From assembly GCA_964016885.1 (NCBI GenBank), contig OZ024740.1, positions 79,980,001 through 80,044,000 on the forward strand: 64,000 bases of DNA. Reading direction: 5' to 3'. Made by a program: the position numbers and the translations under genes. Below the pieces are notes generated by a model that worked only from the letters and a program-made list of their open reading frames with translations, searched no databases and was not told the DNA's origin. This stretch comes from Eledone cirrhosa. Lineage: Eukaryota. Shown piece by piece: positions 32,786 through 41,731 of this stretch; within the stretch, counting starts at the first letter, position 1; every line of letters starts with the position of its first letter.

Positions 32786-33885
32786 GACTAGTCACTTAAG
32801 AAAAATTAATTACAGCCATACACCCAATGAGCTTCTATTATTCAATTTCCCTCATGTCCATTAGCTGAAGAGTTAAGGTTTTTTTAAAGCTAGCTTTAGA
32901 TCTTAGTATCTTTATTCATTTGAATATAGTAATTTTATGTCTCCTTAGGTAGGTACATTTACTACTTACCCTTAATTATCATCTCAGAATAATTTGTTTT
33001 ATTTCATAAATTCACTTACTCTAACAAACATACATTTTTGTGTGTCTACATAGTTATTGGAGCAACAATATTTTGGCAGTTATGCAGAAAATGCATTTCT
33101 ACTGAAAATATCTAAAATGGAGGAAATGTCTGAAGTTGTCTCCCATACTTGTTGAAGTAACTGTAGTGATCCTCACTCATTTGTGTTTAAGAAATATTTG
33201 TATTCTCATCTTTTGTATTGAGCAAGATAAGTAACTTCTTAGAGGCTCTCTAATGTAAGCTGGTAAAGAAGAGCTTATTAACTTGGCTCAAGGCATTCTG
33301 ACAATTTATTTATACATTAACTCTATATGTAAAGAACAACAACAAAAAAAATGAAGCACTGCCACATTGCTAAAGACTTGGCTTGTTTCCATTTCATTTA
33401 GGTCTTATTTCAGTGAACTAAAGAAGATATTGTTAGAGATATCATCTGTTTTAACCAGAGAAAGAAAGAGAGGAGGATACTGAAATATTGTAATTTGTCA
33501 GAGAATTACCTTTTTCAGCCTGGGAAATTGGAGATGCTTTGGGGATCTGTGCCACTGATAACAAACATTTTGTCATCATTGGTGGATTGTCGTACAGAAA
33601 TATCAGAGGGTGCTCAACTGTTTTATCACTTCAGCCTCTCTATCACCTATGGTAATGCATTGAGTATTCTCAGTTGCCTCAAAAATAGTCACATTGTCAT
33701 TTCCTGCTGTAGTCGAAGGAATGTGCATGTCCTTTCTTTTTTTTCCTTTCTGATTTTATTTTATTTTATTTTATTTTCATTCACTTGATTTGTCTTATAA
33801 ACGTTACATAATTTAATCAGAAAACATTAATTATTATTTTGAAGTCGACAATATATTCTATAATAAGTTTTGTATTTTCTTTCAG

Positions 33886-33991
33886 GTCCTGGTGGTAGTT
33901 TGTCAGGTGATTCCTACTATCCACGCGTTTTACTTCTCATGCATAAATGGTTTATACCATCTCAGGAACTGGCAGAACATCTTGTAGAATT
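33886..33991 (+). CDS. RASGRP: RasGRP-like exon, REM domain
   Basis: Acceptor ttttctttcag. Encodes (C)PGGSLSGDSYYPRVLLLMHKWFIPSQELAEHLVE(L) and is followed by the U12 donor GTATCCTTT. Confidence 0.92.
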
Positions 33992-34215
33992 GTATCCTTT
34001 GACATTTTTATAAAACTTTAAATCTTTTCAATAATTACTTCCATGTTTTATATAGAACCCTTGTATATATTTTATATAGAATTAAACATTTTTTTTTTTA
34101 TATAACCCTTGTATTTAAATTGTTCATAAATCTTTATAGATTTATCATTTTGGTATTTCTGTTTTAGTATTCCTCACTGTATATTTTTTACTGTATATTC
34201 TCTGAAGTTCCCTCA

Positions 34216-35594
34216 GTGTATCCCCTGTACTTTCCACAATATATCCCCTGTACTTCCCACAATATATCCCCTGTACTTTCCACAATATATCCCCTGTACT
34301 TCCCACAATATATCCCCTGTACTTCCCACAATATATCCCCTGTACTTCCTACAATATATCCCTTGTACTTTCCACAGTGTATCCTCTGTACTTTCCACAG
34401 TGTATCCTCTGTACTTTCCACAATATATCCCTTGTACTTTCCACAGTGTATCCCCTGTACTTTCAACAGTGTATCCCCTGTACTTTCAACAGTGTATCCC
34501 CTGTACTTTCAAGAGTGTATCCTCTGTATTTTCCACAGTGTATCCTCTGTACTTTCCACAGTGTATCTTCTGTACTTTCCACAATATATCCCTTGTACTT
34601 TCCACAGTGTATCCCCTGTACTTTCCACAGTGTATCCTCTGTACTTTCCACAGTGTATCCTCTGTACTTTCCACAGTGTATCCTCTGTACTTTCCACAGT
34701 GTATCCTCTGTACTTTCCACAGTGTATCCTCTGTACTTTCCACAGTATATCCTCTGTACTTTCCACAGTATATCCTCTGTACTTTCCACAGTGTATCCTC
34801 TGTACTTTCCACAGTGTATCCTCTGTACTTTCCACAGTGTATCCTCTGTACTTTCCACAGTATATCCTCTGTACTTTCCACAGTATATCCTCTGTACTTT
34901 CCACAGTGTATCCTCTGTACTTTCCACAGTGTATCCTCTGTACTTTCCACAGTGTATCCTCTGTACTTTCCACAGTATATCCTCTGTACTTTCCACAGTA
35001 TATCCTCTGTACTTTCCACAGTGTATCCTCTGTACTTTCCACAGTGTATCCTCTGTACTTTCCACAGTATATCCTCTGTACTTTCCACAGTATATCCTCT
35101 GTACTTTCCACAGTGTATCCTCTGTACTTTCCACAGTGTATCCTCTGTACTTTCCACAGTGTATCCTCTGTACTTTCCACAGTGTATCTTCTGTACTTTC
35201 CACAATATATCCCTTGTACTTTCCACAGTGTATCCCCTGTACTTTCCACAGTGTATCCTCTGTACTTTCCACAGTGTATCCTCTGTACTTTCCACAGTGT
35301 ATCCTCTGTACTTTCCACAGTGTATCTTCTGTACTTTCCACAATATATCCCTTGTACTTTCCACAGTGTATCCCCTGTACTTTCCACAGTGTATCCCCTG
35401 TACTTTCCACAGTGTATCCTCTGTACTTTCCACAGTGTATCCTCTGTACTTTCCACAGTATATCCTCTGTACTTTCCACAGTATATCCTCTGTACTTTCC
35501 ACAGTGTATCCTCTGTACTTTCCACAGTGTATCCTCTGTACTTTCCACAGTATATCCTCTGTACTTTCCACAGTATATCCTCTGCACTTTGCAC
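34216..35594 (+). repeat. 23-bp minisatellite, about 60 copies, consensus gtRtatcctctgtactttccaca
   Basis: Read directly from the sequence. It explains the stop-free ORFs in all six frames. Confidence 0.98.
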
Positions 35595-36000
35595 TGTGTT
35601 TTTATATATTTCATTTCATTAATGTACCTCACATCATCTATTTCATTTACATCATCATCATCATTAGGTATTGCCTGCTCTCAGTACATTTACTACCATC
35701 TCAGTCCTTTTTGTGCTGTCAATAGCTGTTCCCTGTATTTTTAATCTGTCCAATACTTGATATTATCCAATCACATAATTCTTGGTTTTCCTCTTCTCTC
35801 TTCCCAACCATTTTGCTTTCTATTAATACTCTCTGTAAACCATTTTATTTTAATTAAATGTCTATGAACAATACACAGCTAAAACCCTCAAACTGCCAAC
35901 AATTTAAAAGCTCACAATCTTTGACTTTTTATAGTGATCATTATATATATATATATATATATATATAGGAATGAGTAGGACCCCGACGGCTGAGCTCAAG

Positions 36001-36062
36001 CCGTTTCGACGGCTAATTCTGGACTAAAATTGATATTAGTCCAGAATTAGGCGTCAAAACGG
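36001..36062. repeat. 27-bp-arm hairpin in a GC-richer island between (TA)n tracts
   Basis: ccgtttcgacggctaattctggactaa pairs with ttagtccagaattaggcgtcaaaacgg. The arms end in GAAACGG-like tails that read outward. Confidence 0.75.
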
Positions 36063-36333
36063 TACCCACTCTACTACCCTAAGTATTGAGTACTTTGGTG
36101 CGTTATGGTCCATCTGGTTCCTTACCACATTTCCTTCGTTATATATATATATATGTATATATATATGAAAGAAATCGGATTTCGCTTCAAGCATAGCTTT
36201 ATACAATATGTATAAATATTTTGTATCTCCAAAGAATCATATGCAAATGAGATTAATCACCTCATTTACATAGATGAGAAAAGTATATATTCTCAACTGT
36301 CTTCTAGTCTAGCAGTCGCAAGCTGTGTGAGGG

Positions 36334-36377
36334 ACCGTCCTGACGAAGGCCAGTTAAGTCTGAAATGCATAGACGGT
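36334..36377 (+). ncRNA. Minimal type I hammerhead ribozyme (Penelope-like), intact core
   Basis: ACCGUC-CUGACGA-AGGC(CAGUUAA)GUCU-GAAA-UGCA-UA/GACGGU. It has a 6-bp stem I, a 4-bp stem II and a palindromic stem III (AUGCAU). Predicted cut after 36371. Confidence 0.85.
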
Positions 36378-36477
36378 TGTCCCCCTTGCTTCTGCTGGAC
36401 ATCACCGGAGGGCGTTAGCCCCCCGGTGTTTGCATAGCTACGGCTTCCTAAAACTGTATTTCTTTGGAGATACGAAA

Positions 36478-36512
<35 letters not shown>

Positions 36513-36559
36513 CTCATTTGCTATTGAAACAATAAAAGCTTAACTGTAGGTCATATACT

Positions 36560-36610
<51 letters not shown>

Positions 36611-36839
36611 TGTAGTTAATATGAAGTACTGTGAAGGCTTAGTGGTTAGAGAGTTGTATTTGCAATTGTGAAGTTGCGAGTTCAATTCTCGGACCAGGTG
36701 ATATGTTGTTCTTCTGCCAGGATTTGCAACCTGTAGATAGTATCAGCAATGGAAAAATTGTTTCCTTGGTCCGACCCCACTCGACAAGAGAATGAGGTAT
36801 GGGATCTTGTCGATCGATCAGAGAGAACTGTGAGACATG

Positions 36840-37620
36840 TAATAATTTTTAAAAGCAGTAGAAAAATAGGAAGGGCAAATGATAACAAATGAAACAAAAC
36901 AAAGTAATGTTTTATCCAGTGTATTTTAGCATGATATTTCAGGGATTTTATCCTCTTTTCCGAAGCAAAGCTGAAATAGTCCAAAACAAAACAAGCGATT
37001 GAAGTTTTCTTCCTTGACTGGTCTGTGTCTGCAAAACACATGCGCGAGGTCACTTCAGTAACTATTTGGCTGCATGCATTTCTGACTTATTATTTATCCC
37101 TAGTTTTATTTGGCTGATGCTAATGGCCCCTTTCATCCTTAAATTGCTTATATTCTTCTCTGTCGCCTCTATGGTGGCCTCATTGTATTGGCTGCGACAT
37201 CTATCAAGATGTTTTTTAATGGAAGAGGCTCTCATTGTCATATGTTCCTTGATCCTTATGTGTAGCCTCCTTATTGTAATTCCAATGTATGAGGGGCTAC
37301 ATTTTTTTAATGTGATCTTATAGACCACATATGCTCCTATGTGTTTAGATATCACTATGTGGGTTGGTGTCTGTAGAGCAGTCCCCTCAATGAGGGTCCT
37401 GAGCATGTCAACTGTATATTCAAATCCTCTGTACAGATGGCAGCTGTTGTCTTCTTATTGTTTTGTCTTGGACTATTTCAGCTTCATATCTGAGAAGTGG
37501 GTAATGGCTCTGAAATATCATGCTAAAATACACTGGGTAAAACTATACTTTGTTTTGTTTATTTGTCATCATTTAATCTTCTTATTTTTCCACATTGTAC
37601 CGGCTTTTAACAATTATCAG
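36840..37620 (-). mobile_element. 5'-truncated Penelope-like element: GIY-YIG endonuclease remnant between inverted terminal repeats
   Basis: ORF 37062-37406 (-) contains VVYKITLKKCSPSYIGITIRRLHIRIKEH...IKKHLDRC...INNKSE, the Penelope GIY-YIG pattern. 36840-36995 is the reverse complement of 37456-37620. Confidence 0.88.
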
Positions 37621-38025
37621 TGTTTTACTATATATATATATATGACTGAACACGGAAAATAACTGTGAACACAGTCAATTGCTATAAATAATAGGTTAGC
37701 AAATCAGGTAAAATACGCCTATAGACAGAAAAAAGTCTTCATCTGTTAGCCTCCTTTATACAATTGCTATCGGAGGTGTATATCTCCTTGGTAATATTTT
37801 ATCCATCAGAACAGGCAACCTGATGTATGAGCTGTCTACAAAAAAGCATCAGTATTGAAGTTTTTGAATATTCACTTTAGTTGGGACTTTCTCTTGCAAT
37901 TCTCTGTACATACATTTCTTTGGTAGTTGACCACTTTTTGAACTTGGAGTTGATCCTACTCCAAAAGCAATTTAAACTGTTGAGAACATTTTTATAGGAA
38001 TTAATTTTAATGTAAATATTCCTTG

Positions 38026-38319
38026 GTGAAGGCATATGGTTTAGTCGTTAGAGAGTTGGATTCATAATTGTGAGGTTGTAAGTTCAATTCCTGAACTGGG
38101 TGATGTTTGTTCTTGAGCAAGACACTTTACTTCACATTTTTCCAGTTCATTCAGCTGTAGAAATGTGTTGTGACATCACTGTTTGCCAAGCTGTATTGGC
38201 CTTTGCCTCTCCATTGGGCATCATCGGTGATGTGAAAAGAGATACTGACATGCATAGGTGACTGGTGGTCTTCCACAAAATACTTTGTCTGGGCTTCTCC
38301 CTGAGAGGTCTTTACCCTT
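38026..38319 (+). mobile_element. tRNA-head SINE family B with 13-bp TSD taaatattccttg
   Basis: Head gtgaaggcatatggtttag...gttcaattcc and body ttgagcaagacacttta. TSD at 38013-38025 and 38320-38332. Other copies near 16-140, 6880-7000, 24620-24760, 25815-26100, 26700-26925, 30640-30906, 36630-36720, 44310-44450, 50365-50470 and 61740-61990. Confidence 0.9.
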
Positions 38320-38347
38320 TAAATATTCCTTGACTTAAGTCACTTAG

Positions 38348-38461
38348 ATATCTTGGTGTAGAAGATACAATTACCTGTGAAACTGTTAAGTGTTCACACA
38401 CCCCACAGGAACAAGATTGTTCTTTACAGGTTTACAAGGCTAAAATATGCCATGTTTTCAG
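38348..38461 (+). CDS. RASGRP: RasGRP-like exon, REM domain with Cys/His-rich segment
   Basis: 114 nt in phase 2-2 encoding YLGVEDTITCETVKCSHTPQEQDCSLQVYKAKICHVF(R). Donor gtaagt at 38462. Confidence 0.9.
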
Positions 38462-39490: not shown

Positions 39491-39625
39491 TATTTATTAA
39501 AATAACAGATTAAAGTTTAAGCAAAGAATCACTGCTTTCACTGTTAACGGGATCTTCTGAAGATCCCGTTAAGGGTGAAAGCAGCAATTCTTTGCTTAAA
39601 CTTTAATTTATTATTTTAATAAATA
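39491..39625. repeat. Fold-back palindrome with 67-bp arms and a 1-nt centre, built from a hammerhead-like repeat
   Basis: 39491-39557 is the near-exact reverse complement of 39559-39625. The centre lies inside CTGAAGA, followed by TCCCGTTAAGGGT-GAAA. (TA)n lies on the right. Confidence 0.9.
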
Positions 39626-40329: not shown

Positions 40330-40461
40330 ATATTGGATTCGAACGTTTCCTTTCCACTTTGACCTCGACAAACGGTTAAAAGCAATAGTGGAAAGATTTG
40401 GTCAAATTCTTGAAGCAGAAGGCAATACCAATTTCTCCGAATTAATTGATCTTTCTAAAGT
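40330..40461 (+). CDS. RASGRP: RasGRP-like exon, end of REM domain
   Basis: Acceptor ttttatacag. Encodes YWIRTFPFHFDLDKRLKAIVERFGQILEAEGNTNFSELIDLSK(V). Donor gtgagt. Confidence 0.93.
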
Positions 40462-40989
40462 GTGAGTGAAGAAATAATTCATTATATTTGTTAAAATACA
40501 TGTATATACTCTGTTGTCAAGTATATATAGTTTTCACCATATGGTGTATATGGTTTTTCACTATATTGTGTATGTAGTTTGTCAGTATATTGTATATATG
40601 AGTGTTAACCTTCCTAAGACCAATAATTTGGGGAGTATACATTCGCCATTGTGGGTAAATGAATAAAAGTGTATAAATATGTAAATAAAGAATAAGAACG
40701 ACTATAGTCATTATACCCTGTTTAAACACTACATATAGTACTAACTACACATATAGTATTAACTATACATATAGTACAAAAGAAAACAATGATTTGAGGA
40801 AAAAGGAAAAAAGAAATTGAGAAATGGAATGTATATTTCCATATATGTATATTCCATTTGTGCAAAAGAATGAAGGATGACAGGAAAACATATCATTTAT
40901 ACAAATGATATAAGCATTAGCTGTTGTCTCAACTAATGACAATTTGTATGTATGCAAATATGTATGTGTGTGAGTGCAACTACTTTGGT

Positions 40990-41470
40990 GTTCATTCACC
41001 TCTGTCTCTTTCACTCTTTACCTGTTGTGAGGTTTAGTTTTTTGAGATTGGTCTTAATTACCAAGTCCCAAGTCTTCCTGTGTCTCTCATTTCTATGGGT
41101 CCTAGCTACTGAGATTTCTCTGCATTTCTATATGCAGCTGCTATCTTCCATATGCATCACATGGCCATACTAATGCAATCTTCTCTCTTGCACACTATAT
41201 CCAATTTCTTTTATGCCAAGTTTTTCTCTTAGTTCACTTATGCTACTAACATTACACATCCATCACAGCATATTCACTCCATTTCTTTCTAACCTTCTTG
41301 GTCTTTTGTATCAAGGACCATGTCTCATGGACATGTAGTATTGCAGTTTGCATGCAAGCATCATAGTCTACCCTTCACTCTAAAAGAGAAGCCCTTTGTT
41401 GCCATTAGAGGTACCAGCTCACTAAATGTATTCCAGCCTCTACTTATTCTGGCCAGCACACTCTCAGAGA
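40990..41470 (-). mobile_element. Degraded RTE 3' fragment (similar pieces at 4380-4680 +, 10900-11085 -, 15540-15990 +, 17400-17810 -, 30375-30590 -)
   Basis: Recognisable PL..KGFSL, ETW and WYGHV coding remnants shared with the 55700 and 62351 elements. Confidence 0.75.
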
Positions 41471-41580
41471 ATCCTTAATGTCCCAAAATAACTCTTGACA
41501 AAGAAAAACTGCATAAAATTTGATTTGTATTTCTTGAATTAGTTGTTAATTATATATTTTTAAATTCTCTCTTTCCACAG

Positions 41581-41731
41581 ACCTTCTTATGACTGGATGC
41601 GTTGTATGTCTGTGAGAAATTCCTCTGTTCGACATTCCAGAAAAGTATCGCTTGTTTTTGACCATTTAAAACCAGAAGAATTGGCTGAACAACTAACATG
41701 TTTAGAATATAAAGTCTTTCGTAGAATTAAT
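41581..41731 (+). CDS. RASGRP: RasGRP-like exon, linker and start of CDC25/RasGEF domain
   Basis: Acceptor ctctctttccacag. PSYDWMRCMSVRNSSVRHSRKVSLVFDHLKPEELAEQLTCLEYKVFRRIN carries the RasGRP signature PSYDW...SL.FDHL.P.ELAE.LT.LE. Donor gtgagt. Confidence 0.96.

What the first reader, a model, noticed from the sequence alone, without database searches (positions are those of the whole stretch)
34216..35594. Minisatellite of U12 donor-like motifs ~225 nt inside a U12 intron
Seen: most 23-bp units contain GTATCCTCT or ATATCCTCT, matching 8 of 9 positions of the U12 5' splice site RTATCCTTT in both its GT and AT versions, on the sense strand. The motif is usually preceded, one base earlier, by an acceptor-like ctttccacag identical to the last 10 nt of the real acceptor ending at 41580. 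Known: tandem U12-type 5' sites form the USSE, which binds U11 and regulates splicing of SNRNP48 and RNPC3. Inference: the array could bind or titrate U11/U12, offer decoy donors, or make splicing depend on copy number. It may also be a chance match, and the +8 C weakens U11 pairing.
Basis: partly seen in the sequence, partly recalled or inferred. Interest (0 to 1): 0.75.

Follow-up and report, generated by a model that had tools for sequence, protein, structure and literature searches.

The report
Donor-like minisatellite in RasGRP minor intron
A 23-base DNA repeat found at only one place in this animal's genome sits inside a rare minor-class intron of the RasGRP signalling gene, and most copies resemble that intron's start signal, but the one transcript assembly seen is cut at the normal site and look-alike repeats lie at many unrelated places, so the resemblance is likely a tolerated coincidence.

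Summary
A 23-bp array (60 in-register units, 34216-35594) starts 225 nt into a real U12 intron (33992-38347) of a RasGRP gene. The intron's position fits the human RASGRP minor intron. 39 of 60 units carry RTATCCTCT, none the perfect RTATCCTTT. RTATCCTCT is a real but uncommon U12 donor in mammals (34 versus 676 entries), so decoy binding is possible. Nothing found shows use. A spliced contig joins the authentic donor to 38348. The exact unit occurs only here. At least 29 other arrays carry tandem RTATCCTYT, some perfect, and the reversed control pattern is commoner. None of 28 checked lies behind an exon with a U12 donor. The 5' edge units are less donor-like, and a relative's contig departs 50 nt into the intron. 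The USSE test fails on host gene and context. Best reading: a likely young, neutral minisatellite with incidental donor likeness (about 0.67). Against it: such an array inside some U12 intron is expected only 0.02-0.05 times per genome (0.2-0.6 for any 8/9 match). The scan noted repeated U12 donors before in two other genomes (NOL11, ARL16); those notes describe copies of the donor itself.

The parts
33886..33991 (+). RasGRP coding exon (REM / RasGEF_N region), 106 nt, ends in phase 2 of the Leu before a conserved Tyr
   Evidence: tblastn of P0001; weak hits to RASGRP2 and RASGRP4 chains; edges from the spliced X4 contig
33992..34000 (+). Authentic U12 (GT-AG subtype) donor GTATCCTTT, the only perfect one on the + strand of the window
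   Evidence: used in the X4 contig
34100..34116 (+). Isolated unit-like patch, 15 of 17 identical to a minor unit variant and within 1 nt of the 23-nt register; possibly an older unit
   Evidence: the surrounding 33992-34165 is not significantly periodic
34166..34215 (+). Two degenerate edge units, the likely local seed of the array; the unit anchored at 34195 reads ATATTCTCT (7 of 9)
   Evidence: alignment to the array beats 299 of 300 shuffles and 300 of 300 genome stretches
34216..35594 (+). Single-locus 23-bp minisatellite, 60 units of 11 variants; 39 with RTATCCTCT; the first seven units read RTATCCCCT or ATATCCCTT; higher-order blocks; no stop codon and no yUnAy branch motif on the + strand
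37010..37018 (+). Second TTCCTTGAC branch-site look-alike inside the intron, just beyond one arm of a 103-nt inverted repeat; AC 20 and 22 nt after its A; no sign of use
38326..38347 (+). U12 branch site TTCCTTGAC and 3' splice site AG
   Evidence: the X4 contig resumes at 38348
38348..38461 (+). Next RasGRP exon (114 nt)
   Evidence: loose end of the X4 contig and matching depth
41571..41580 (+). Last 10 nt (CTTTCCACAG) of a real U2 acceptor of the same gene, identical to part of the unit

Best explanation
This is a single-locus, likely young and neutral minisatellite inside an authentic U12 intron of RasGRP; its units resemble a U12 donor likely by accident, and the one spliced contig seen uses the authentic upstream donor. 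Shown: the array, the intron and its removal at 33991/38348, the uniqueness of the unit, and the many unrelated donor-like arrays. Inferred: the array grew from the local seed at 34166-34215 by slippage and unequal exchange. A C-to-T change at +7 would have turned RTATCCCCT units into RTATCCTCT units, which then spread in blocks. The minor spliceosome would keep to the true donor because it comes first, pairs better with U11 and has an exon in front of it, as silent pseudo-donors do in F7 intron 7.
For: An exact 22-mer of the unit gives 36 hits in 3.0 Gb, all in this array. Triple tandem RTATCCTYT gives 1,981 matches against 7,424 for the reversed pattern. Searches list 30 distinct arrays (lists cut, so a lower bound); 13 of the other 29 have 10 or more motifs, including at least 1,260 perfect ATATCCTTT sites in one satellite. 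0 of 28 arrays with 6.8-9.9 kb of upstream DNA showed a convincing exon plus U12 donor, while the same heuristic found the RasGRP exon. 0 of 60 units reach the perfect donor, and the first seven units and the edge unit are 7 of 9 or poorer. The variant order shows repeated blocks typical of turnover. The X4 contig (3,375 nt) runs from exon 33886-33991 into exon 38348 and on through 40330-40461 and 41581-41731. The contig of organism B keeps exon and donor (33849-34041) and then continues 482 nt unlike this intron. The likeness to the true donor ends at the 9-mer: 44% of random tails score as well.
Against: The coincidence is not cheap for one genome. With about 46 such arrays and an assumed 500-700 U12 introns of 4.4-10 kb, 0.02-0.05 are expected on the sense strand of any U12 intron, and about 0.001-0.002 within the first 300 nt. 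For any 8/9 match the figures are 0.2-0.6 and 0.01-0.02. The neutral reading therefore leans on the number of genomes and motifs that the scan looked at. RTATCCTCT is a working donor elsewhere, and AGT before GTATCC is seen in 25 real donor entries. A 15-of-17 unit-like patch at 34100 exceeds all background tested. The RNA evidence is one simplified contig of depth 13.6, which hides rare isoforms. The upstream check was judged by eye and misses U12 introns whose donor lies more than 7-10 kb away.
Confidence: 0.67

Rival explanations
1. The array is a U11 decoy field. Nascent RNA with 39 usable donor-like sites would load U11/U12 unproductively or compete with the true donor, slowing removal of this intron so that RasGRP output would depend on copy number.
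For: The motif is a bona fide donor sequence in mammals (34 entries, among them human HTT and SLC44A4). This genome's U11 can form 5 in-register pairs with each majority unit. The units are on the sense strand, 225-1,600 nt from the donor and upstream of a branch site, and the array is only weakly structured (z -1.76 for six units). Chance of this placement per genome is low. U11 binding to tandem donors is functional in the USSE (PMC8329584).
Against: There is no perfect site in 60 units. The +8 C falls inside the +5 to +10 helix with U11 (PMC11874965), and the predicted duplex is -4.4 against -6.6 kcal/mol, a value that about a quarter of random 13-mers reach. The contig seen is spliced normally. 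No class-wide link to U12 introns was found. In F7, even identical pseudo-donors do not compete (PMC1557585 abstract).
Confidence: 0.13
2. The array descends from the authentic donor. It would be the re-amplified tail of an old junction-spanning minisatellite of the F7 type whose first units have decayed, so the likeness would be by descent and still passive.
For: Unit-like patches lie at 33991 (13 of 17), 34052 (13 of 17) and 34100 (15 of 17; 0 of about 60,000 random 17-mers and 0 of 300 AT-rich stretches reach 15). The donor lies 226 nt, about ten periods, before the first anchor. This would explain the low chance figure. Earlier scan notes describe donor-copying arrays in two other genomes (not checked).
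Against: 33992-34165 is not significantly periodic (58 of 300 shuffles and 33 of 300 genome stretches score as well), and the donor tail is not unit-like. The donor window ranks only in the top 2.7% of window sites for likeness to the unit. The units nearest the donor are the least donor-like.
Confidence: 0.15
3. The array supplies alternative exons. A unit's CAG would act as a U2 acceptor and a later unit's RTATCC as a U12 donor, giving a 1+23k nt exon that could replace exon 33886-33991 in frame when k is a multiple of 3 (70 nt).
For: Each unit has a pyrimidine tract as rich as the gene's real acceptors (13 of 17, against 11-14 of 17 for six real ones). The + strand has no stop codon. A CTCAC branch motif lies at 34173.
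Against: There is no yUnAy branch motif inside the array. The X4 contig includes exon 33886-33991 and none of the array. Replacing a conserved REM-domain exon by repeat-coded residues would likely break the protein.
Confidence: 0.05

Closest known systems
Human minisatellites that repeat a splice donor: F7 intron 7 (37 bp), CBS intron 13, IFI6 (6-16) intron 2, LMNB2 (PMC1557585; abstract and introduction read)
   Same: A tandem array of donor-like sites downstream of an authentic donor, with the most upstream site used.
   Different: Those arrays start at the exon-intron boundary and repeat the donor exactly, and F7's is a major-spliceosome donor. This array starts 225 nt inside, is not a copy of the donor and sits in a U12 intron.
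USSE of SNRNP48 and RNPC3 (PMC8329584, PMC3584512, PMC5473595, PMC6865273; passages read)
   Same: Tandem U12 donor-like motifs on the sense strand of non-coding RNA, with a U2-type acceptor-like sequence upstream.
   Different: The USSE has two motifs, is deeply conserved, keeps a conserved distance to its acceptor and lies in genes of U11/U12 proteins as a feedback loop. Here there are 39 imperfect motifs in a private repeat, in a signalling gene, inside a U12 intron, with no shown effect.
RASGRP1-4 minor intron (PMC6865273 passage; PMC6717393 supplement 1 rows)
   Same: All four human genes have a minor intron. The exonic triplets listed for RASGRP1, 2 and 4 (CCT, CAT, CTC) fit phase 2 of the residue before the conserved Tyr, as here (inferred).
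   Different: The mammalian donors begin with AT; this one is GT-AG and holds a 1.4-kb minisatellite.
Intronic tandem repeats associated with splicing in humans (spl-TRs, PMC10078293; passages read)
   Same: Repeat length near splice signals can change splicing.
   Different: No length variation or splicing effect is shown here.

Membership tests
U12-type (minor) intron | 5' splice site RTATCCTTT | tested here: met
   GTATCCTTT at 33992
U12-type (minor) intron | TCCTTRAC branch site close to the 3' end | tested here: met
   TTCCTTGAC at 38326-38334, branch A 14 nt before the end
U12-type (minor) intron | Removed from the transcript at these ends | tested here: met
   The X4 contig leaves the genome after the exon and continues with exon 38348; the run's kind is not on record, RNA is inferred from the exon joins
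U12-type (minor) intron | Removal depends on the minor spliceosome | not testable with these tools
   U11 genes are present, 2 matches over the cut-off; dependence needs a knock-down
USSE | Tandem U12-type 5' splice site motifs | tested here: met
   39 of 60 units match 8 of 9 positions, none 9 of 9; the USSE has two motifs (PMC5473595)
USSE | Host gene encodes a U11/U12 protein (feedback loop) | tested here: not met
   The host is RasGRP
USSE | Element and its distance to the upstream acceptor are conserved | tested here: inconclusive
   The contig of organism B departs at 34042 and runs 482 nt unlike this intron; one relative only, and its letters were not seen
USSE | Activates an upstream U2-type acceptor, giving an unproductive isoform | tested here: inconclusive
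   Only the normal isoform is seen, in one simplified contig
USSE | Bound by U11 snRNP | not testable with these tools
   Only pairing potential was computed: 5 in-register pairs against 6 for the true donor
Junction-spanning donor minisatellite (F7 type) | First unit spans the exon-intron boundary | tested here: not met
   The array begins 225 nt inside; 33992-34165 is not significantly periodic
Junction-spanning donor minisatellite (F7 type) | Pseudo-sites identical to the authentic donor | tested here: not met
   0 of 60 units have GTATCCTTT; the tail is no closer than chance
Junction-spanning donor minisatellite (F7 type) | The most upstream donor is the one used | tested here: met
   one contig
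Single-locus minisatellite | Head-to-tail units of 10-100 bp with interspersed variants at one locus | tested here: met
Single-locus minisatellite | Copy number varies between individuals (VNTR) | not testable with these tools
   No long reads of other individuals were served

The most novel reading that the evidence does not exclude
A mutable minisatellite has become a copy-number dial on a rate-limiting minor intron: 39 working-grade U12 donors soak up U11/U12 on the nascent RasGRP RNA, or pair with the second branch site at 37010 as a nested AT-AC intron, so that repeat length sets how much RasGRP is made. This would be the first U11-binding regulatory element outside SNRNP48 and RNPC3, and one built by a repeat.
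Probability: 0.1. Interest if true: 0.75.

Novelty: new member of a known kind. Interest (0 to 1): 0.27.

Why it matters
If neutral, it shows that a minor intron tolerates dozens of near-consensus donors just behind its own. It then makes a natural test piece for how the minor spliceosome chooses a donor, a question studied for the major spliceosome with F7. If the array binds U11 and tunes splicing, it would extend USSE-like control beyond the two known genes (PMC6865273) and tie a Ras activator's dose to repeat length. My searches found no paper on a minisatellite of U12 donors (listings and abstract starts only). The library lacks most subscription papers.

Tried and rejected
A dispersed satellite family: rejected. 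The only other BLAST place (C2, L013) is a different repeat of about 11 bp, 73-75% alike, and the exact 22-mer is private. Origin from the acceptor at 41580: not supported. It scores among the 17 best of 24,985 windows, level with or below unrelated sites; a pyrimidine-rich unit ending in CAG resembles acceptors anyway. Origin from the donor: kept only as a rival. Two other arrays had a perfect GTATCCTTT upstream (C2:391.97 Mb, C1:405.36 Mb), but both lie in stop-riddled sequence that looks like transposon remnants (likeness recalled, not searched). The C1:416 Mb satellite was dropped from the upstream count because its start was not reached in 70 kb. RNA duplex energy did not separate variants well: the poorer RTATCCCCT and ATATCCCTT units score -6.2 and -6.8 in shifted registers. 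No RNA holder was listed by record. X4 has no cover on 33997-34262 and X5 none on 34206-34262, the first two units; contigs do not show absence, so neither blank is used as evidence. RAD-seq run X6 had no depth on the exons. Pfam gave only a weak RasGEF_N hit for 1 of 4 single exons. No look-alike notes in relatives. A count of minor introns for this lineage was not found in PMC10639083 or its supplement, so 500-700 is assumed from the human figure of about 700 genes (abstract start of PMC12332006). The paper on USSE spacing was not held. PMC1557818 passages gave no figure for +8.

Full report
Observation. The array is real: period 23, 61 copies, 94% matches at 34196-35599, with 60 anchors in exact register from 34218 to 35575. 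39 of 60 units read RTATCCTCT (27 GT, 12 AT), 13 RTATCCCCT, 5 ATATCCCTT and 3 GTATCTTCT; none reads RTATCCTTT. 45 of 60 follow CTTTCCACAG by one base, and that 10-mer occurs elsewhere in the window only at 41571-41580. Contigs of two DNA-like runs of one sample bridge 33789-34262 without a difference and hold array variants, so the start of the array is not an assembly artefact.

Host gene and intron. The exon 41581-41731 matches RASGRP1 and RASGRP2 chains (E 3e-10 and 5e-10). Its nearest named relatives are molluscan RasGRP3-like proteins at 76-80% identity, and an unnamed protein P0001 is 96% identical. P0001 maps exon by exon from 22491 to 55205 and on beyond the window; I noted no second U12-type donor at the exon ends printed there. 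Earlier AI notes call this genome an octopod's (not tested by me). The intron 33992-38347 has a perfect donor, a TTCCTTGAC branch site and an AG 14 nt after the branch A. All human RASGRP genes carry a minor intron (PMC6865273, passage). The donor contexts listed in PMC6717393 supplement 1 fit the same codon position when set against the PDB alignments, so the intron is likely ancient. A 3,375-nt contig of run X4 covers 33886-33996 with one other letter and then continues as exon 38348; it also joins 40461 to 41581. The run is not on record as RNA; I infer that from the joins. The dominant message is thus spliced at the authentic sites.

Can the units act as donors? Possibly. In the mouse and human table of PMC6717393 (supplement 1, term counts) GTATCCTCT and ATATCCTCT occur 27 and 7 times, against 455 and 221 for the TTT forms. 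The genome's own U11 (2 matches) begins AAAAGGG. In register it forms 6 contiguous pairs with the true donor and 5, broken at +8, with the majority units. The +5 to +10 positions are the ones paired to U11 (PMC11874965, passage). Duplex energies are -6.6 and -4.4 kcal/mol, and 26% of random 13-mers reach -4. Each unit also has an acceptor-like pyrimidine tract (13 of 17), but the array has no yUnAy branch motif. AG and donor are one base apart, so it is not a zero-length recursive site.

Is it more than chance? The exact 22-mer is found only here (36 hits, control 0). As a class, however, tandem donor-like motifs are ordinary in this genome. Three RTATCCTYT in a row match 1,981 times against 7,424 for the reversed pattern; narrower spacings give 298 against 571 and 144 against 658. 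These counts are dominated by a few long arrays, so they show no excess rather than depletion. The cut lists name 30 arrays, on both contig strands. 13 of the 29 others have 10 or more motifs, and one satellite has at least 1,260 perfect ATATCCTTT sites. For 28 of the 29 I read 6.8-9.9 kb upstream. Twelve isolated RTATCCTY sites lay near 9 arrays; three passed a crude exon heuristic, and none was convincing by eye, whereas the heuristic found the RasGRP exon. In 60 evenly spaced 10-kb samples TRF gave 52 arrays of 3 or more copies and 18 of 10 or more; 1 of 52 and 0 of 18 had an 8/9 match. Random 23-mers give RTATCCTYT in 0.07% and any 8/9 match in 0.7%. With 46 arrays extrapolated from 25 on C1-C4 and an assumed 500-700 U12 introns of 4.4-10 kb, 0.02-0.05 such arrays are expected in the sense strand of U12 introns per genome, and 0.001-0.002 in the first 300 nt. 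Any 8/9 match gives 0.2-0.6 and 0.01-0.02. So the placement is uncommon for one genome and unremarkable across a scan of many genomes and many possible look-alike motifs. This is the main result against my reading.

Origin. The 48 nt before the array are two decayed units (1 of 300 shuffles and 0 of 300 genome stretches score as well), so the array likely grew in place. The first seven units are RTATCCCCT or ATATCCCTT; the donor-like variants appear later and recur in blocks, as turnover by slippage and unequal exchange would give. Descent from the donor was tested. A 15-of-17 patch at 34100 is beyond background, but 33992-34165 as a whole is not periodic (58 of 300, 33 of 300) and the donor's tail is no closer to the unit than 44% of random tails. 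In organism B one contig keeps the exon and the first 50 nt of the intron, with no difference listed in the donor, and then runs 482 nt unlike this intron; another matches the right flank at 35651-35928 with 24 differences. This is a weak hint, from one relative whose letters I could not read, that the region is not conserved.

Comparison. The USSE is a tandem U12 donor in SNRNP48 and RNPC3 that binds U11, activates an upstream U2 acceptor and is conserved with its spacing (PMC8329584, PMC3584512, PMC5473595; passages). This array fails on host gene and shows neither conservation nor effect, so it is not filed as a USSE. It works most like the F7-type minisatellites, whose repeated donors stay silent while the most upstream site is used (PMC1557585, abstract and introduction), but it is not a member, since it does not span the boundary or copy the donor. 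Earlier scan notes report donor-copying U12 arrays in NOL11 and ARL16 of other genomes and a satellite-swollen U12 intron in DCP2 of this genome; I did not check them. Searches for a published U12-donor minisatellite found none (listings and abstract starts only, 27 and 50 served the USSE papers). PMC10078293 (passages) shows that repeat length can alter splicing in humans.

Verdict. A real, private minisatellite in a real, ancient minor intron, likely a tolerated passenger (0.67). Descent from the donor (0.15), a U11 decoy (0.13) and alternative exons (0.05) remain open. Interest 0.27; it would rise to about 0.75 if a copy-number effect on splicing were shown.

Noticed in passing
G000:C1:416359865-416419984 (L064-L066, L153-L156): A 36-bp satellite of at least 60 kb carries a perfect ATATCCTTT in most units (1,260 sites counted). 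If it lies in a transcript on that strand it would be a far larger U11 target than the array studied; its gene context is unknown.
   Followed up: partly
G000:C4:114019212-114019709 (L146): A 31-bp array with 17 motifs, 9 of them perfect RTATCCTTT, each unit holding a small inverted repeat over the motif; no exon-linked donor seen upstream.
   Followed up: partly
window 37010-37039: A second perfect U12 branch-site look-alike inside the intron, with AC 20 and 22 nt after its A. TCCTTRAC occurs 5 times on the + strand of the window, so this may be chance.
   Followed up: partly
window 34130-35744: All three + strand frames are open across the array (484-531 codons) because the unit has no stop codon; no sign of coding.
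   Followed up: partly
window 38348-38356: The downstream exon begins ATATCTTGG, itself donor-like, so aligners can misplace this junction by up to 5 nt.
   Followed up: yes
window 39491-39625: A 135-nt near-perfect hairpin element (67-nt arms, 91%) beside TA runs, likely a MITE; high multi-copy depth in the laid runs.
   Followed up: no
window 36892-36994 and 37458-37560: 103-nt inverted arms, 84% complementary, around 463 nt inside the U12 intron; likely a non-autonomous DNA transposon.
   Followed up: no
L067 and L068 (G000:C4:182848605-182848738; C1:365616724-365616857): Two near-identical U11 snRNA genes on different chromosomes, both over the Rfam cut-off.
   Followed up: partly
L069-L128 (60 x 10 kb samples): The genome is very rich in minisatellites: 18 arrays of 10 or more copies in 600 kb, five of which fill most of a 10-kb sample.
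   Followed up: partly
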